Positions 13,354 to 48,089 of a stretch of DNA of 64,000 nucleotides are shown here, piece by piece. Below the pieces are notes generated by a model. The model made no database searches and was not told the DNA's origin. It saw nothing but the letters and a program-made list of their open reading frames with translations. Source of the DNA: a virus. Lineage: Duplodnaviria; Caudoviricetes. Where the stretch lies: IMG/VR virus record IMGVR_UViG_3300028549_001457, positions 160,001 through 224,000 of that record; one strand, given 5' to 3'. How positions within the stretch are numbered: the first letter of the stretch is position 1; each line of letters opens with the position of its first letter. Made by a program: the position numbers and the translations under genes.

Positions 13354-13493
13354 AAGTCTTTCAGTAGCAACATTTGAGATACTTCGCCTGTAAAGCGGGA
13401 TGTCGTGAGTTCGAGTCTCACCAGGGGGCAACCTCTGTAGCTCAGTTGGATAGAGCGCCTAAACCTCTCGGATGGCCTTTCTCTGAAAGATTT
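13354..13493 (+). ncRNA. YrlA-like Y RNA 1 (permuted tRNA domain, acceptor capped by GCAA)
   Basis: outer stem gtctttcag/ctgaaagat, TAG, inner stem catttgag/ctcggatg, ATACTTC, then anticodon arm, T arm, acceptor, D arm. Confidence 0.75.
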
Positions 13494-13500
13494 CTTTTTA

Positions 13501-13652
13501 AACCTTGCAATAGCTAGACAAGCCTTACTTCGCCCGTTAAGCGCGTAAAGCGGTGGTTCGACTCCATCATCCGGCACCAGAACAACCCATGCCGGATTAG
13601 CCCAGTGGTAGAGGCACGTAAAATTCGGCTAGTCAATTTTCTTTGCAAGGTT
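13501..13652 (+). ncRNA. YrlA-like Y RNA 2 (permuted tRNA domain with internal ACCA)
   Basis: outer stem aaccttgcaa/ttgcaaggtt, TAG, gacaagcc/ggctagtc, TTACTTC; atccggc-ACCA-11 nt-gccggat. Confidence 0.75.
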
Positions 13653-13737: not shown

Positions 13738-13884
13738 ATTTCCAGTAGTAAGAAGCAGGATACTTCGATTCAGCTCACGCTGAAGTTTCTTGGTTCGATT
13801 CCAAGATTCCCCGCCAAGTTTAATCTCTGGGGAATTGCCTAATGGTTAGGCGATCAAGCCCTTCTTTAAGTTTCTCTGGGAGTT
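13737..13884 (+). ncRNA. YrlA-like Y RNA 3 (permuted tRNA domain with internal GCCA)
   Basis: outer stem aatttccag/ctgggagtt, TAG, agaag..gg/cccttct, ATACTTC; attcccc-GCCA-12 nt-ggggaat. Confidence 0.75.
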
Positions 13885-14661: not shown

Positions 14662-14736
14662 TTTCTCAAGTAGCTAGGAGTAGCGTTACTTCGCTTTTGG
14701 TGCAAAAAACACGCGATCCACTTTTCTCTTGAGAAA
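14662..14736 (+). ncRNA. minimal Y-like RNA 4 (scaffold with a single short hairpin)
   Basis: tttctcaag/cttgagaaa, TAG, gga..gcg/cgc..tcc, TTACTTC, TTTTCT. Confidence 0.6.
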
Positions 14737-39234: not shown

Positions 39235-39263
39235 TGAACCTTTTTGAAATTTGTGCCGTATCT
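39235..39263 (+). promoter_or_regulatory. ECF-like promoter TGAACC-N16-CGTATCT
   Basis: recurring motif upstream of a long noncoding tract. Confidence 0.6.
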
Positions 39264-39331
39264 TAAACTAGTCCCCTGAGGGGGCGTTGAATCCTTGAAA
39301 ATTTGGCAACATATTTAAGTAAACTAACTAT

Positions 39332-39660
39332 GGCCTGACTAGGCACTTCGGTGCCGTAGCGCTCCAGCGTTGGTCGGGCCTCCAATCAAAACCCCGTCCT
39401 AGTAGCTTCCTAGGCTGTAATTCAAACGGCCATGAGGGGCAGTAACCCTTCGTGCAGTAAAGAGTCTCCTGGAGGCATTAACCTCTAAGGTCTGAATAGA
39501 ACGCGGCTTTTAGCTGTGAATCCAGTGAGCCAAACTGGTAGAATGAGTAGTTGCGACACTCCGGGGAATCATCAAACCCAAGGGGCAGTAAGTCAAAATG
39601 GGTTACTTCGAGAGCCTTCACAAGCTCACCATATGCAAAGACACCCACTGACGATTCCCT
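39332..39660 (+). ncRNA. large unassigned structured RNA candidate
   Basis: ORF-free; ggcctgact/ggtcgggcc and ggcac-ttcg-gtgcc stems; repeated GGGGCAGTAA. Confidence 0.45.
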
Positions 39661-39844
39661 CCCCTTGGTTTTTATAACCTAATTAACTTAGGAGGCTTAT
39701 ATGCCTGACTCAACTGGTTACTGGGGCGATGACGATGACAACAAGGTTCTTGATGCCATCGATGACGAATTTGATCGCTACGAGCGAGAAAATCCTGACG
39801 AAGATTAATTAGTCTGTATTGTTTTTATATATGATGGAGCAAGC

Positions 39845-42227: not shown

Positions 42228-42301
42228 GCGGGTGTAACTCAGTGGTAGAGTGCTAGCTTCCAAGCTGGAAGTCGAGGGTTCAAATCCCTTCACCCGCTCC
42301 A
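42228..42301 (+). tRNA. tRNA-Gly body with 6 nt anticodon loop (ttccaa)
   Basis: identical to Gly(GCC) at 18813 outside the anticodon arm; ctagc-ttccaa-gctgg. Confidence 0.7.
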
Positions 42302-43301: not shown

Positions 43302-43557
43302 ATTAGTTGTATCTGTAGCATGGGAGGCCTTATGGCTAAGGTTGATTATAGACTGGCATTGGAAAATGCTCATAAATCTCTCGCCCAGGATGAGTTTTTT
43401 AGGAGACTGAGCAAGATGGGTCCCGAGGAGCAGTCCGAGTTTCTGAAGAAATTGTCGGTTCCCGATGACGCAGTTATTGAAGTTGGAGAAGAATCCTAAT
43501 TTTTTCTTTTAATGAAATTAATTCCTGGTATCTCTCTTAGGTAAGATCCTTGACAAT

Positions 43558-43773
43558 TTGTCCAGTAGCGAGTATCCGGTTACTTCGTTAATATGACTCA
43601 GTGTTATATTTACCTTGGATGTAAGGTCCCGAAGGAACCACCTGAAGGTAGGGGGGTTAGCGTAAAAACTAACCTTGAGATACATGAGTAACTTCCCTCA
43701 TGGCATCTCTTATCGGGTGGGCATCCCACAGATGCTTAAAAAGTGAACCCCGTATACGTTAATCTCTGGACAG
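43558..43773 (+). ncRNA. Y-like RNA 5 with large multi-hairpin payload
   Basis: tgtccag/ctggaca, TAG, gtatccgg/ccgtatac, TTACTTC; about 170 nt insert. Confidence 0.65.
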
Positions 43774-43779
43774 CACTTT

Positions 43780-43837
43780 CACGGTAGCAAGTAAAGAGTT
43801 CCTTCGGCTATGAAACTCTATACAACAAACCTCCGTG
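43780..43837 (+). ncRNA. minimal Y-like RNA 6
   Basis: cacgg/ccgtg, TAG, gta..gagtt/aactc..tac, TTCCTTC variant. Confidence 0.5.
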
Positions 43838-43845
43838 TTCTTTCC

Positions 43846-43876
43846 GGCCCCTCCTACTCCGAGGGGCTTTTTCTTT
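43846..43876 (+). terminator. intrinsic terminator after Y-like RNAs 5 and 6
   Basis: gcccctc/gaggggc stem plus T run. Confidence 0.75.
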
Positions 43877-44086
43877 AGGTGAGGAACTGTCATGTACATA
43901 ACATCTACACAGTATTCAACTTATTTGGATTCTTACGAAAAGCAGGGCCACCTAATACAAGGCAACCCTTTGGGGAGACTCTTCTGTTCTGATTTTAATA
44001 TATCAGATCCTGACCTCTTTCGAGAAAACGATAATAAGGTGGCCGCAGCCTTAATCAGAAAAAGATATGTAGCCTAAAAAATTTTC

Positions 44087-44115: not shown

Positions 44116-44190
44116 TATCTATGGCGACCAAATAGATGGTCCCCGCATCTCCCTGGCGCACTAGGGTAGCACATAGAAGGACGGTGCCCC

Positions 44191-45657
44191 ATGGCTCGTT
44201 TCGCTAAGACGGAAGTCTCTACTGTTAACACTCCTACTACTGTTAACTTGGCTGGAGGGGAAGCTTTTGCTATGTCCCCTAAGCTTGAGTTTGCTTCGGC
44301 GCTGTTGACTTGCTTCACCACGGATACTTATTACAAGTCCGGTGAGGGTCAGGTTAGTCGCATTGCCGATTTGTCCAAGACTGTTGACCCTTTGTTTGCA
44401 GCAAAGGCAGCTATCTTTACTCGTAAGAAGAATGGCCTCCGGTCTGTAAGCCACATTGTGGCCGGGGAACTCTCTCAGCGTGTGGATATCAAGGGCTTGG
44501 AGTGGACTCGTAAGTTCTACGAGCGGGTTGTCAATCGTCCTGATGACATCACCGAGACTCTTGCATATATCAAGTCCACGAGTGGTCAGAACCTCCGTAA
44601 GTTGAGCAACGCTATGAAGAAGGGTTTCGGCGCGGCTCTCGGTAAGTTTGATTCTTATCAGCTTGCCAAGTATCGTGGAGAGGGTAAGGATCTGAATCTG
44701 TATGATGCGGTCAATTTGCTGCACCCTAAGGCTACTGCTGCATTGACCGAGCTGATGACCGGGACTCTTAAGCCAGCCGAAACTTGGGAGACCAAGCTTA
44801 CTCAGGCTGGTCAGAAGGCATCTTCGGATACCGAGAAGGCCGAAATGAAGGGTCAGGCATGGCGTGAGCTTTTGACTGCTAACAAGCTGGGCTTCATGGC
44901 TTGCATCCGCAATCTTCGCAACATTGCGGAACAGGCTCCTGATGTAATGCCTTTGGCTCTGGAGTTCATTACGGACCCTCATCAGGTTAAGAAGTCCCTG
45001 ATGTTCCCCTTCCAGATTTATACTGCTACCGAAGCAATTCGTGGCACTAAGGCTGATACCCGTGAGGTTAAGCTGGCTCTGGAAAAGGCGATGGAGTTGA
45101 GCCTTGTCAATGTTCCCAAGTTTTCAGGTAAGACCCTGATTGCTGTTGATACCAGTGGATCTATGGCTGGTCGCCCCGTTCAGATTGCTGCGTTGTTTGC
45201 GGCTGTGCTGTTTAAGTCTAACGATGCAGACGTTCTGCGTTTTGCTTCGGGCGCTACCTACCTGGACCTCCACCCAGCGGATAGTCTTACCACGCTCACC
45301 GAGAAGATTCACCGCGCTTCCGGGGGTGGGACCGATTTCCACAGTATCTTCGAAACTGCTAATAAGGTCTATGACCGAATTATCATCCTTTCGGACATGC
45401 AAGCTTGGGTAACTCGTCAGGTTAGTTCTTATTGCGCTGGGACCCCTCATGCCGCACATAAGGCTTACAAGCAGAAATTTGGAGCGGATCCTCGGATCTT
45501 CTCTTTCGATCTGACGGGTCAGGGGACCCTCCAGTTCCCCGAGAGCAAGGTTTTCGCTTTGGCGGGTTTTAGTGACGCCGTTTTGAAGACCATGCAGAAC
45601 CTCGAAATGGACCCTAATGCCCTCGTGCATGAAATCGAGTCTATTAGCTTGACCTGA
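44191..45657 (+). CDS. rsr: Ro60/Rsr RNA-binding protein (TROVE plus vWA domains)
   Basis: NLAGGEAF, DPLFAAKAAIFTR...LRSVSH, YQLAKY, TWET, IRNLRN, PF; DTSGSM, GGGTDF, IILSDMQ. Confidence 0.9.
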   Translation: MARFAKTEVSTVNTPTTVNLAGGEAFAMSPKLEFASALLTCFTTDTYYKSGEGQVSRIADLSKTVDPLFAAKAAIFTRKKNGLRSVSHIVAGELSQRVDIKGLEWTRKFYERVVNRPDDITETLAYIKSTSGQNLRKLSNAMKKGFGAALGKFDSYQLAKYRGEGKDLNLYDAVNLLHPKATAALTELMTGTLKPAETWETKLTQAGQKASSDTEKAEMKGQAWRELLTANKLGFMACIRNLRNIAEQAPDVMPLALEFITDPHQVKKSLMFPFQIYTATEAIRGTKADTREVKLALEKAMELSLVNVPKFSGKTLIAVDTSGSMAGRPVQIAALFAAVLFKSNDADVLRFASGATYLDLHPADSLTTLTEKIHRASGGGTDFHSIFETANKVYDRIIILSDMQAWVTRQVSSYCAGTPHAAHKAYKQKFGADPRIFSFDLTGQGTLQFPESKVFALAGFSDAVLKTMQNLEMDPNALVHEIESISLT

Positions 45658-45761: not shown

Positions 45762-46253
45762 ATGCTTCTTAAATGGTTTTTCCTCTTGCACATAGTATTT
45801 CTACTCCCTATGTATAGCCAAGAGCTAACTGATCCCGAGGCCAAGGTCGCGGCAGTTAGTATCATATCTACCTTTACAACATGGCCCACGTATAAATGTG
45901 GGGAGCTTAGGGTTGGTTTTGTAGGGTCACCCTCTAAGTATTTTATGGATGCAATTGGTTCTAGATCTAAAAAGTATCCCGTAAAGTGGATACCGCTTCG
46001 ATGGAGTGAGGTTGATGCTGCAAAAATTGATGTTTTATATGTTTGTGATGATATTTTCTTTCCACAGGTAGTTCCACCGGGTGTCTTAACTATTTCGGAT
46101 GCACCCCTGTTTGCTGAACGTGGGGGTATGGTTCATATTTTTCTAAACGAACATCAACACCTTAGGTTATCTATTAATCTACGAGTAGTCTTAAAGAGTG
46201 GGCTTAAAATTGACTCAAAAGTCCTTAAACTGGCTAAAATTGTTGAGATATAA
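45762..46253 (+). CDS. YfiR family (DUF4154) periplasmic regulator
   Basis: signal peptide; FTTWP, VLTISD...FAERGGMV.I...INL......GLKIDSKVLKLA. Confidence 0.8.
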   Translation: MLLKWFFLLHIVFLLPMYSQELTDPEAKVAAVSIISTFTTWPTYKCGELRVGFVGSPSKYFMDAIGSRSKKYPVKWIPLRWSEVDAAKIDVLYVCDDIFFPQVVPPGVLTISDAPLFAERGGMVHIFLNEHQHLRLSINLRVVLKSGLKIDSKVLKLAKIVEI

Positions 46254-46258
46254 CCTAT

Positions 46259-47740
46259 ATGGCAATTAAGATTAGAAGTATCAAATATCAAGTTACTGCT
46301 GCGGTGGCTACGTCAGCTATTGCCTCAGCCTGCGTAACTCTCCTGTCATTTTATGGGTATACCTATTATACGGTTCGAAAGAATCTAATCCAAGATACCC
46401 AGTCTCAAGCCTCCGTTACAGTTAAAAACTTAGAGGCCTCGCTTATCTTTAACGATACTAAAGATGCCACGGACACACTATCCGCACTAAGTGAAAACCC
46501 AAGTATAAAGAGAGCTATTATTTATAAGAATGGGGCCGTATTTGCTAAGTTCCCTGAAGATCTTCATGTTCAGGATGGCCTCATAAACCACAAACCATAC
46601 TATTTTGACAAACACCTTGAAACTTGCACAAGTATACGTTTAGGTGAACGAGATAAAGCTGAACTACATCTTTCAGTATCCCTAGATACACTTAATTCAC
46701 GCCTAAACCTAGCGATGTTAACCCTGTTAAGTTTATCCGTAGTCTCCACTTTTATAGCTAGCTATTTGGCATACAGAGCTGCTAAAGCTATGATCACACC
46801 TATTCTTGTTTTAGCGGAGACTGCAAACTACGTTAAAACTACACAAGATTATAGTATTAGAGTTCCTGAGTCCAGGCACTCCCACGAAGTTACCCTTCTT
46901 GAGGTATCTTGCAATAATCTATTTGAAGAACTCCAAAGAAGAGAGACACATATTTCTAGTCAAAGAGGTCTTCTAGAGACGCTTGTGCAAGAGAGGACCG
47001 TTGAGTTAGAAGCTGCCAAACTAAAAGCTGAATTTGCGTCTAAAACTAAGTCATCCTTCCTTGCAAATATGAGTCATGAACTAAGAACCCCATTAACATC
47101 TATTATGATGTATTCTGAAATTGTTAAAGAAGACCTTGAATCTGGTAGTATTACACAGTCAAGTATTAAGGACGTAGATAAGGTCATTGCAGCTAGTGAG
47201 CACCTGCTTAGTCTAATTGATGATATTTTAGATCTAGCTAAAGTGGAGACAGGTAAGTTTGAACTTTACCTTGAAGATACCACCTTAGGGGATCTTCTGG
47301 AAGAAGTTACGAGTCAGGCTACTGTTTTAATGGAAGTAAATGATAACACGTTTACAGTTCATAATAACGCAACACCAAATTTGAGTTTATATACAGATGG
47401 TAAGCGAGTTAAGCAAATACTGTTAAATTTATTAAGCAATGCTGCAAAGTTTACTCATTCTGGATCAGTATCGCTGGTAATCCAAGATGTTGATAGTTCA
47501 ATACTCTTTACAGTATTGGATACAGGGATAGGGATGAGTGAAGAACAAGCTATACGTGTATGGGGTGAATTTGAGCAGGCTGACCAAGCTACTTCAAAGA
47601 AATTTGGGGGGACTGGGTTAGGGCTCTCTTTAACTAAAAAATTCACAGAAATGCTTGGTGGATCCATTGTTTTACAATCTACTTTAACGGTAGGCTCCTC
47701 GTTTACCGTGGCGCTCCCTCTCAGGAGTGCTTATGTGTAA
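46259..47740 (+). CDS. membrane sensor histidine kinase (periplasmic sensor, HAMP, HisKA, HATPase)
   Basis: two TM helices; FLANMSHELRTPL, QILLNLLSNAAKFT, DTGIG, GGTGLGL. Confidence 0.95.
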   Translation: MAIKIRSIKYQVTAAVATSAIASACVTLLSFYGYTYYTVRKNLIQDTQSQASVTVKNLEASLIFNDTKDATDTLSALSENPSIKRAIIYKNGAVFAKFPEDLHVQDGLINHKPYYFDKHLETCTSIRLGERDKAELHLSVSLDTLNSRLNLAMLTLLSLSVVSTFIASYLAYRAAKAMITPILVLAETANYVKTTQDYSIRVPESRHSHEVTLLEVSCNNLFEELQRRETHISSQRGLLETLVQERTVELEAAKLKAEFASKTKSSFLANMSHELRTPLTSIMMYSEIVKEDLESGSITQSSIKDVDKVIAASEHLLSLIDDILDLAKVETGKFELYLEDTTLGDLLEEVTSQATVLMEVNDNTFTVHNNATPNLSLYTDGKRVKQILLNLLSNAAKFTHSGSVSLVIQDVDSSILFTVLDTGIGMSEEQAIRVWGEFEQADQATSKKFGGTGLGLSLTKKFTEMLGGSIVLQSTLTVGSSFTVALPLRSAYV

Positions 47741-48089
47741 TGTATTACTAGTTGAAGATAACGCGGTTAATACCGAGTGTTTTGAGCGGGTGTTAACGCA
47801 AGATGGGCATAAAGTTCAATCAGCTCAATCTGGTGAAGAGGCGCTAGATAAATTTGTTAGGGACACGTTTGATTTAATCCTAATGGATATTGGGCTCCCT
47901 GGGATTGATGGCTTTGAGACTACACAACGAATAAGATCTATGGGGTTTTTAGGTCCAGTGATAGCAATAACTGCATATACTTCGAATGAAGTTAGAGCTA
48001 AAGCCACCCATGTAGGGTGTACATGTTTCAGATCTAAACCGATTTCCCTCAAGGATCTCCGGGCAATCGTTAAGAATTACTTTCAATGA
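47727..48089 (+). CDS. single-domain CheY-like response regulator
   Basis: VLLVEDN, DLILMDIGLPGIDG, IAITA, KP. Confidence 0.9.
   Translation: MLMCNVLLVEDNAVNTECFERVLTQDGHKVQSAQSGEEALDKFVRDTFDLILMDIGLPGIDGFETTQRIRSMGFLGPVIAITAYTSNEVRAKATHVGCTCFRSKPISLKDLRAIVKNYFQ

What the first reader, a model, noticed from the sequence alone, without database searches (positions are those of the whole stretch)
43558..43876. Tandem long and minimal Y-like RNAs with a shared terminator
RNA 5 replaces the tRNA mimic with about 170 nt of hairpins (ggtccc-gaag-gaacc, acct-gaa-ggt, ggttag/ctaacc, catgag/ctcatg, gcatct/agatgc). RNA 6 has almost no payload. The paired layout parallels Salmonella yrlA/yrlB next to rsr. 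The RNA 5 payload is a candidate new effector domain.
Basis: partly seen in the sequence, partly recalled or inferred. Interest (0 to 1): 0.7.

Follow-up and report, generated by a model that had tools for sequence, protein, structure and literature searches.

The report
Two phage Y-like RNAs beside Ro60
Just upstream of a huge phage's Ro60 gene lie two small RNA genes carrying the docking "handle" typical of this phage group's Ro60 partner RNAs: one is a bare hairpin, the other carries a ~160-nt body that is not tRNA-like, a little-described variant of a known RNA-protein system.

Summary
A covariance model built only from 61 Y-type scaffolds beside TROVE/Ro60 genes in other contigs finds exactly seven matches in the window. 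All are on the + strand, and there are no others in the 279-kb phage genome. They include RNA 5 (43560-43771, E 3e-5) and RNA 6 (43779-43838, E 4e-5). An intrinsic terminator follows (43846-43876), and the Ro60 gene starts at 44191.

RNA 6 is a minimal hairpin. RNA 5 has about 160 nt of hairpins where the sister RNAs carry a tRNA-like core, and no tRNA or Rfam family matches it.

Long non-tRNA Y RNAs recur beside the closest Ro60 homologues. Their bodies diverge fast: only one relative (L037) is clearly alignable to RNA 5.

An RNA-library contig from a ~90%-identical relative spans exactly the RNA 5 unit. Outside one remodelled hairpin, its eight substitutions all fall at predicted unpaired positions. 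The contig is circularly permuted, which remains unexplained.

Binding to Ro60 and an effector role for the payload remain inferences. Phage Ro60 with upstream Y RNAs is already published, and this scan has reported the same handle family in at least eight other genomes. I class it as a new variant of a known kind, of moderate interest.

The parts
43513..43533 (+). Upstream motif TGAAATT-N-GTATCT, also present at 39245-39263 ahead of another ncRNA unit. A candidate phage promoter, untested.
   Evidence: 2 matches in the window, 0 expected in shuffles. The sigma-70 scan does not call a promoter here.
43546..43560 (+). Leader motif ATCCTTGACAATTTG abutting the RNA 5 stem. A near-identical copy lies at 39291-39305. 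A-U-rich versions sit in front of Y scaffolds in relatives.
43558..43773 (+). RNA 5, a long Y-like RNA. It has a closing stem (43558-65 / 43766-73), an internal loop (UAGCGA 43566-71 / GUUAAUCU 43758-65), a second helix (43572-81 / 43746-57) and ACUUCG (43582-87).
   Evidence: R2 hit 43560-43771, 29.7 bits, E 2.8e-5. Fold z -3.7. An RNA-library contig covers 43555-43777.
43588..43745 (+). RNA 5 payload, a multi-hairpin, non-tRNA body. The best-supported hairpins are 43590-43610, 43653-43676, 43683-43702 and 43721-43735. The most conserved block is about 43710-43752.
   Evidence: No tRNA or Rfam match. No second copy in the genome.
43779..43838 (+). RNA 6, a minimal Y-like RNA made of the scaffold plus a 13-nt loop.
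   Evidence: R2 hit, 29.0 bits, E 4.2e-5. R1 gave E 0.007. Fold.
43846..43876 (+). Intrinsic terminator shared by RNA 5 and RNA 6: GGCCCCUC-loop-GAGGGGCU followed by UUUUCUUU.
   Evidence: Terminators likewise follow the last Y RNA in L034, L058, L061, L062 and L003.
44191..45657 (+). Phage Ro60 homologue with TROVE and vWA domains, 488 aa. The presumed protein partner.
   Evidence: Pfam TROVE 1.3e-16 and vWA_Ro60 2e-7. Matches solved phage phiLo Ro60 9KOP/9L5Y at 7e-20 and Deinococcus Rsr 2NVO at 3e-8.

Best explanation
RNA 5 and RNA 6 are two of seven Y-type noncoding RNAs encoded by this ~279-kb phage. They are the pair placed directly upstream of its Ro60 (TROVE-vWA) gene. They are probably made from one transcript that ends at the shared terminator and is then cut into two RNAs.

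Each RNA has the clade's conserved handle. This is a closing stem formed by the 5' and 3' ends, an asymmetric internal loop (5'-N-AG-Y-R-A opposite 3'-A-U-rich-YCU), and a second helix ending in GGUUMCUUCG. I infer that this handle docks on the Ro60 ring.

RNA 6 is handle only. It would act like the small YrlB/Yrn2-type Y RNAs, occupying or gating Ro60.

RNA 5 carries a ~160-nt multi-hairpin body in the position where sister RNAs, including three in the same phage, carry a tRNA-like module. By analogy with Deinococcus Rsr-Y RNA-PNPase and with Thermus phage phiLo Ro60-Yrl-PNPase, that body most likely positions Ro60 next to a partner or substrate other than the one addressed by the tRNA mimics.

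Shown here: the scaffold, its covariation, its tie to Ro60 genes, the absence of a tRNA module, and the recurrence of long non-tRNA versions. Inferred: Ro60 binding, co-transcription and processing, and any effector role of the payload.
For: (1) Model R2 was built only from 61 external scaffolds. It finds 7 hits in the window, all on the + strand, including RNA 5 and RNA 6 (E 3e-5 and 4e-5), and none elsewhere in the genome.

(2) Both scaffold helices covary. 90% of cells are paired against 60% in shuffles. There are 238 double-change cells against 75. Register slides drop pairing to 40-52%.

(3) The scaffold travels with Ro60. Nineteen IMG/VR loci were fetched by a pure DNA pattern. The 9 with a genuine scaffold (7 confirmed by R2, 2 judged from the sequence) all encode a TROVE protein of 28-43% identity. 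The 10 other matches do not.

(4) The same scaffold encloses YrlA-type tRNA-like cores recognised by Rfam RF02553. This holds in this phage (13397-13462, E 5e-8) and in relatives.

(5) Long non-tRNA versions sit upstream of the closest Ro60 homologues: L034 (166 nt), L037 (231), L058 (235) and L061 (196). Minimal-plus-long pairs occur in L061, L062 and L003.

(6) The payload of RNA 5 is collinear with that of L037 (z 5.0, 0 of 200 shuffles).

(7) A 214-nt contig from an RNA library covers only 43555-43777. Of its 10 listed substitutions, 8 lie outside hairpin 43609-36, and all 8 fall at MFE-unpaired positions where 66% of bases are paired (about 2e-4 by chance). The scaffold ends are unchanged.

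(8) Published precedent exists. Phage Ro60 binds two upstream Y-like RNAs and host PNPase (PMC12135203). Y RNAs lie near Ro60 in 22 phages (PMC4201824).
Against: - No binding data exist.
- The published Ro60-contact motif GNCGAAN0-1G is absent from both RNAs, and Rfam YrlA does not match them.
- Payload sequences of most long relatives show no significant similarity to RNA 5, and I could not derive a shared payload structure. A specific conserved effector site is therefore unproven.
- The RNA evidence is one low-depth contig (about 5x) from a relative, in a library that could contain DNA.
- No sigma-70 promoter is called.
- Four of the seven scaffolds lie about 30 kb from the Ro60 gene, inside the tRNA array.
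Confidence: 0.65

Rival explanations
1. RNA 5 is a genuine Ro60-binding Y RNA, but its body has no specific partner. It would be a fast-evolving expansion, or the decayed remnant of a tRNA-like module, and only the handle matters. RNA 5 would then act as a sponge or gate for Ro60, as RNA 6 does.
For: Payloads differ greatly in length (109-234 nt) and sequence among close relatives. Most pairs are not significantly similar. One hairpin (43609-36) is largely deleted in a ~90%-identical relative. No consensus payload fold emerged.
Against: In the close relative the substitutions avoid predicted helices. The block at about 43710-43752 is conserved in two further relatives (the X2 contig and L037). 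The long form is kept next to Ro60 across a clade whose Ro60 proteins are only 58-74% identical. No T-arm or D-arm remnant is detectable.
Confidence: 0.2
2. RNA 5 matures into a covalently closed circle, with the ends of the closing stem ligated. It would act as an exonuclease-resistant form: a decoy, a store, or a long-lived Ro60 partner.
For: The RNA-library contig is circularly permuted. Record positions 1-188 match 43579-43777 and positions 189-214 match 43555-43580. It starts where it ends, and no flanking sequence is attached, at about 5x depth. The genome encodes two Rnl2-type RNA ligases, and a relative has RtcB next to Ro60 (L062).
Against: This rests on one contig, and the shorter side of the joint is only 26 nt. 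The tool did not list it as a joint. Two tandem near-identical copies in that relative's DNA would give the same graph, and tandem Y arrays are common in this family. This genome has no RtcB. I found no report of circular Y RNAs.
Confidence: 0.1
3. The shared handle is not a Ro60 site. It would be a processing or structural cassette of the phage tRNA island, recognised by an RNase or another protein, and it sits near Ro60 only through synteny.
For: Four of the seven scaffolds lie among tRNA genes about 30 kb upstream of Ro60. A-U-rich spacers flank them, like processing sites.
Against: The link with TROVE is 9 of 9 in loci fetched by RNA pattern alone, across 28-43% protein identity. The scaffold encloses YrlA-type cores, a family defined by Ro60 binding. 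A permuted copy of the handle sits in the Ro60 mRNA leader.
Confidence: 0.05

Closest known systems
Bacterial and phage YrlA Y RNAs (Chen et al. 2014, PMC4201824; Rfam RF02553)
   Same: Encoded on the same strand within 2 kb of a Ro60 ortholog. The 5' and 3' ends form a stem with a conserved loop. The design is modular: handle plus body. Sister RNAs in this phage and in relatives carry the YrlA T-arm/D-arm core.
   Different: RNA 5 and RNA 6 have no tRNA-like core, no GNCGAAN0-1G motif and no Rfam match. The handle motif here is N-AG-Y-R-A ... GGUUMCUUCG ... A-U-rich-YCU.
YrlB (Salmonella, M. smegmatis) and Deinococcus Yrn2
   Same: A second, small Y RNA next to the main one. [quoted passage not shown] RNA 6 fits this description.
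   Different: No sequence similarity was tested or expected. Salmonella YrlB carries GNCGAAN0-1G; RNA 6 does not.
Thermus phage phiLo Ro60 with Yrl1/Yrl2 (PMC12135203; PDB 9KOP, 9L5Y)
   Same: A phage Ro60 with two Y-like RNAs directly upstream. They are not described as tRNA-like and form complexes with Ro60 and host PNPase. The window's Ro60 matches the phiLo protein at E 7e-20.
   Different: Yrl1 and Yrl2 were defined by a CGAA motif in a large bulge, which is absent here. Nothing like the ~160-nt body of RNA 5 is described. This phage has seven Y-like RNAs.
Handle-sharing Y-like RNA families beside phage Ro60-like genes reported earlier in this scan (for example e1-5364825, e1-5365538, e1-5406221)
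   Same: A closing stem plus a CAGCAA-type box, with many members per phage, some carrying large non-tRNA bodies.
   Different: These are unchecked AI notes on other genomes. No sequence look-alike of RNA 5 is indexed.

Membership tests
Y RNA (Ro60 partner RNA, bacterial/phage type) | Encoded near (<2 kb) and on the same strand as a Ro60/TROVE gene | tested here: met
   RNA 5 ends 418 nt and RNA 6 ends 353 nt upstream of the TROVE-vWA gene, on the same strand.
Y RNA (Ro60 partner RNA, bacterial/phage type) | 5' and 3' ends pair into a stem carrying a conserved loop or bulge, the Ro60 site | tested here: met
   Full-length matches to the externally trained model R2. Both helices covary in 61 sequences.
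Y RNA (Ro60 partner RNA, bacterial/phage type) | Physically bound and stabilised by Ro60 | not testable with these tools
   Indirect evidence only: the 9 of 9 co-occurrence of scaffold and TROVE.
Y RNA (Ro60 partner RNA, bacterial/phage type) | Accumulates as a discrete small RNA | tested here: inconclusive
   One 214-nt contig of an RNA library from a ~90% relative is bounded at 43555 and 43777. Depth is about 5, and DNA carry-over is not excluded. There are no data for RNA 6.
YrlA (Rfam RF02553) | tRNA-like domain with T and D arms | tested here: not met
   No tRNA or YrlA match at E<=10. ARAGORN is negative even at a relaxed setting. As positive controls, 13397-13462 in this window and five relatives do match.
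YrlA / YrlB (Chen et al. 2014) | GNCGAAN0-1G motif near the 5' end | tested here: not met
   Read directly from the sequence. RNA 5 has UAGCGAGUAUCCGGUUACUUCG and RNA 6 has UAGCAAGUAAAGAGUUCCUUCG, and neither contains G-N-C-G-A-A. The Rfam alignment places GGCGAAUGC where this clade has GGUUMCUUC.
YrlB / Yrn2-type small Y RNA | [quoted passage not shown] | tested here: met
   This applies to RNA 6 only: a 60-nt hairpin with loop CCUUCGGCUAUGA, 6 nt after RNA 5.
phiLo-type phage Yrl RNAs | Two RNAs upstream of phage Ro60, with a CGAA motif in a large internal bulge | tested here: inconclusive
   The layout is met. The CGAA motif is absent from the internal loop: the only CGAA in RNA 5 (43630-33) lies in a payload hairpin that changes in the relative.

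The most novel reading that the evidence does not exclude
RNA 5 represents a distinct class of Ro60 partner RNA in huge phages. Its large non-tRNA body would recruit a partner other than those addressed by the tRNA mimics, and it would be matured into a covalently closed circle. That would be the first circular Y RNA and would tie phage RNA ligases to Ro60 biology.
Probability: 0.12. Interest if true: 0.8.

Novelty: new variant of a known kind. Interest (0 to 1): 0.55.

Why it matters
Y RNAs are thought to work as adaptors. A constant handle docks on Ro60, and a variable module chooses the partner, such as PNPase. In bacteria the only well-described module is a tRNA mimic.

This phage offers seven handles with different bodies in one genome. 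They range from a bare hairpin (RNA 6) through tRNA mimics to a large non-tRNA body (RNA 5) placed right at the Ro60 gene. That is a natural panel for asking what the module does.

If the RNA 5 body binds its own partner, it widens the known repertoire of Ro60 particles. It would also hint at what huge phages, which carry their own tRNAs, tmRNA and RNase P RNA, do to host or phage RNA during infection.

If the body is neutral, the case still refines the definition of the Ro60-docking handle, which differs from the published GNCGAA motif.

Tried and rejected
- **Rfam matches.** Rfam at gathering score and at E<=10 on 7 kb and on 341 nt gave nothing for RNA 5 or RNA 6 beyond terminator look-alikes.
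- **tRNA remnants.** ARAGORN, default and relaxed, found none.
- **5S rRNA or loop-E resemblance.** I suspected this by eye (CCACCUG, GAGUAGG). No Rfam 5S hit appeared, so I dropped it.
- **GGUCCCGAAGG at 43625-35 as a metazoan-type Ro site.** Rejected. It lies in the payload and is altered in the close relative.
- **Payload alignments.** MAFFT and RNAalifold on 5 long RNAs, and on the W5/L037 pair, gave no usable payload consensus.
- **BLAST of the payload against the genome.** No second copy.
- **Closest-relative searches.** IMG/VR search with the single protein found nothing. An exact 28-nt pattern from RNA 5 found nothing. Contigs of P0003, P0006 and P0020 have no DNA on hand. Relatives cannot be drawn for virus records.
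- **Sigma-70 promoter scan.** None upstream of RNA 5.
- **Coding reading of 43593-43691.** Rejected, because the relative carries a 1-nt deletion inside it.
- **Review PMC10870794.** Not held.
- **DNA runs X2, X3 and X5.** They show only identical or near-identical sequence and no joint. Parts without cover in X9 are not evidence of absence.

Full report
**Setting.** The window is bases 160001-224000 of a 278,785-bp IMG/VR virus record estimated 95% complete. It holds 44 tRNA genes, a tmRNA, an RNase P RNA and a group I intron, all on the + strand. At 44191-45657 it holds a 488-aa protein with TROVE and Ro60-type vWA domains. This protein matches the solved Ro60 of Thermus phage phiLo (9KOP/9L5Y, E 7e-20) and Deinococcus Rsr (2NVO, E 3e-8). 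The finding covers the 392-nt ORF-poor gap between a 59-aa ORF (43320-43499) and a 61-aa ORF (43892-44077) upstream of that gene.

**What the relatives show.** I fetched DNA around Ro60 homologues from metagenomes, IMG/VR and public assemblies. Upstream of nearly all of them lie one to several RNAs of one design:
- a closing stem made from the two ends;
- on the 5' strand, a box N-AG-Y-R-A;
- a second helix ending in GGUUMCUUCG;
- a variable body;
- on the way back, an A-U-rich stretch ending in YCU, then the other strand of the closing stem.

Many bodies are tRNA-like. Rfam's YrlA model matches them full-length, though below its gathering score (E 1e-6 to 0.02).

**An independent model.** I aligned 20 minimal examples from external loci (A3). 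RNAalifold recovered the two helices with compensatory changes at all 12 pairs. Model R1 was built from this alignment and collected 61 scaffolds from 40 external loci (A4).

On A4, 90.2% of cells are paired against 60.2% in shuffles. There are 238 double-change cells against 75. Sliding the register by 1-3 columns drops pairing to 40-52%.

Model R2 was rebuilt from A4 with no window sequence in it. It finds exactly seven matches in the 64-kb window, all on the + strand:

| Position | E-value |
|---|---|
| 14665-14733 | 1e-12 |
| 13359-13488 | 1.7e-6 |
| 13740-13881 | 3e-6 |
| 39580-39665 | 6e-6 |
| RNA 5, 43560-43771 (29.7 bits) | 2.8e-5 |
| RNA 6, 43779-43838 (29.0 bits) | 4.2e-5 |
| 13505-13648 | 8.6e-5 |

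The whole genome adds none. Inside 13359-13488, Rfam YrlA matches the tRNA-like core (43.6 bits, E 5e-8). The same handle therefore encloses a curated Y-RNA module in this very phage.

**Is the handle tied to Ro60?** A pure DNA pattern, TAGCRAG-N5-10-GGTTACTTCG, pulled 19 IMG/VR stretches. Nine had a genuine scaffold: seven were confirmed by R2 and two (L039, L046) I judged from the sequence. All nine encode a TROVE protein in the fetched locus, at 28-43% identity to the window's. None of the ten other matches, most of them apparent chance matches in coding sequence, does. This is the strongest indirect evidence that the handle is a Ro60 element.

**RNA 6.** It is 60 nt, with stem CACGG/CCGUG, box UAGCAA, helix AAAGAGUU/AACUCU and loop CCUUCGGCUAUGA. 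It is the shortest of the seven. [quoted passage not shown]

**RNA 5.** The handle spans 43558-43587 and 43746-43773. Between its two halves lie about 160 nt that fold into several hairpins (MFE -72.8 kcal/mol, z -3.7). Nothing tRNA-like is present, no Rfam family matches and there is no second copy in the genome.

Among 113 scaffolds scored by R2, 68 have a T-loop, 38 are minimal and 7 have longer non-tRNA bodies. The long non-tRNA form is concentrated in the window's own Ro60 clade (tree):
- L034: 74% Ro60 identity, 166 nt, in a syntenic locus;
- L037: 71%, 231 nt;
- L058: 71%, 235 nt;
- L061: 196 nt, in the sister group;
- L062, and the 635-kb phage LR745206 (L003), also carry a minimal RNA followed by a long one and a terminator.

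So the "long plus minimal plus terminator" layout next to Ro60 recurs, in either order.

**Is the payload conserved?** Only partly. Local alignment of payloads against shuffles gives RNA 5 vs L037 z 5.0 (0 of 200 shuffles) and L034 vs L037 z 3.9. Most other pairs are not significant. The RNA 5/L037 alignment is collinear along the whole body. Its best block is near the 3' junction: GAUGCUUAAAAAGUGAACCCC against GAUG-UUAACAGGUGCAACCC. I could not derive a shared payload structure from so few, so divergent sequences.

**Public runs.** The stretch occurs in microbial-mat DNA runs and, in part, in lake-water runs. Laying contigs of four runs gave two useful things.

First, a contig in DNA run X2 shares only 43716-43752 (1 mismatch) and then continues ACCACACAAATCTCTGG. 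This is another RNA 5-type 3' end with a different second-helix strand. The block at about 43710-43752 is therefore the most conserved part of the body.

Second, a 214-nt contig from a freshwater metatranscriptome (X9, depth about 5) matches 43555-43777 and nothing beyond. It shows 10 listed substitutions and short deletions. The handle, the first hairpin (43555-43610) and the last 68 nt are unchanged.
- Hairpin 43609-36 is largely remodelled.
- The remaining 8 substitutions all fall at MFE-unpaired positions, with pairing probability at most 0.48 and mostly about 0. Since 66% of positions are paired, this is about 2e-4 by chance.
- A 1-nt deletion at 43675 rules out the 32-aa ORF 43593-43691.

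This supports selection on the fold and hints at a discrete RNA whose ends match the prediction. It is one low-depth contig from a relative, and RNA libraries can contain DNA.

**An unexplained feature.** That RNA contig is circularly permuted. Record positions 1-188 match 43579-43777 and positions 189-214 match 43555-43580. The contig ends where it begins and joins ...GGACAGCACU to AAUUUGUCCAG....

It could be a covalently closed RNA. The ends sit side by side at the base of the closing stem. The genome has two Rnl2-type ligases and no RtcB. A relative has RtcB beside Ro60. It could equally reflect two tandem near-identical copies in that relative, or an assembly effect. The shorter side is only 26 nt and the tool did not list it as a joint. 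I found no paper on circular Y RNAs. I cannot decide between these readings with the calls allowed.

**Comparison with what is known.** Y RNAs near Ro60 were reported in 254 bacteria and 22 phages, "at least one" per species with a tRNA-like domain and a GNCGAAN0-1G motif (PMC4201824). Thermus phage phiLo Ro60 binds two upstream Y-like RNAs and host PNPase (PMC12135203). Jumbo phages are known to carry TROVE proteins (PMC7824862).

RNA 5 and RNA 6 meet the positional and architectural criteria. They fail two sequence criteria of YrlA: there is no tRNA-like core and no GNCGAA motif. In the Rfam alignment, GGCGAAUGC sits where this clade has GGUUMCUUC.

They are therefore best filed as Y-type RNAs with a clade-specific handle. 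RNA 6 is of the YrlB kind and RNA 5 has a non-tRNA body not described in the papers I could search. This scan has already reported the same handle family beside phage Ro60-like genes in at least eight other genomes, one with "large non-tRNA payloads". Those are unchecked notes, and none shares sequence with RNA 5.

**Mechanism, with status.** The handle docks on Ro60 (inferred from co-occurrence and from YrlA cores sharing the handle). RNA 6 occupies or gates the ring (by analogy). RNA 5's body brings in or excludes a partner or substrate different from that of the tRNA mimics (inferred; the weakest step). The two RNAs are co-transcribed and cut apart (inferred from the 6-nt spacing, the single terminator, and the M. 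smegmatis precedent).

**Verdict.** This is a new variant of a known kind, with interest 0.55.

Noticed in passing
window 44150-44190 (also L004, L006-L012, L034, L037, L058-L060 just before the TROVE start): The Ro60 mRNA leader looks like a circularly permuted copy of the Y handle: AUCUC-CCCU-[loop]-AGGG-UAGCAC, then the ribosome-binding site GAAGGA. The stem covaries between loci (CCCU/AGGG, CCCC/GGGG, CCCUUG/CAAGGG, CCCUC/GAGGG) while both flanking motifs are kept. This suggests Ro60 binds its own leader to control translation.
   Followed up: partly
window 43555-43777, RNA run X9: A 214-nt contig of a freshwater metatranscriptome is circularly permuted relative to RNA 5: the 3' end at 43777 is joined to the 5' end at 43555. 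It could be a circular RNA, tandem copies in a relative, or an assembly effect. Unresolved.
   Followed up: partly
window 14665-14733: This is the best-scoring Y scaffold of the genome (57 bits, E 1e-12). It is a minimal form between tRNA-Asn and tRNA-Ala/RNase P RNA. With it the phage has seven Y-like RNAs, not six.
   Followed up: partly
window 39245-39305 and 43513-43560: Two ncRNA units share a two-part upstream sequence: TGAAATT-N-GTATCT, then ATCCTTGAMAATTTG right at the RNA start. It may be a phage-specific promoter plus leader. The sigma-70 scan does not call it.
   Followed up: partly
window 39580-39665: A Y scaffold (E 6e-6) forms the 3' end of the ~330-nt structured RNA at 39.3 kb. 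Part of that RNA (CCAGTGAGCCAAACTGG...) is also conserved in L034 at about 1080-1130.
   Followed up: no
window 45762-48089; L034 4550-6098; L062 5738-9366: Ro60 is followed by a histidine kinase and a single-domain response regulator in the window, L034 and L062. L062 also has RtcB in between. This synteny holds across 63-74% Ro60 identity.
   Followed up: no
contig of P0020 (no DNA on hand): A close Ro60 homologue (65% identity) is directly followed by type I-C CRISPR genes (Cas5d, Csd1, Cas7).
   Followed up: no
window 43320-43499; L034 2472-2645: A small ORF (59 aa; 57 aa in L034) with visibly similar sequence precedes the long Y RNA in both phages. It has no Pfam match.
   Followed up: no
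window 42228-42301: ARAGORN reports a tRNA with an undetermined anticodon (a 6-nt loop), while Rfam scores it as a good tRNA at 62 bits.
   Followed up: no
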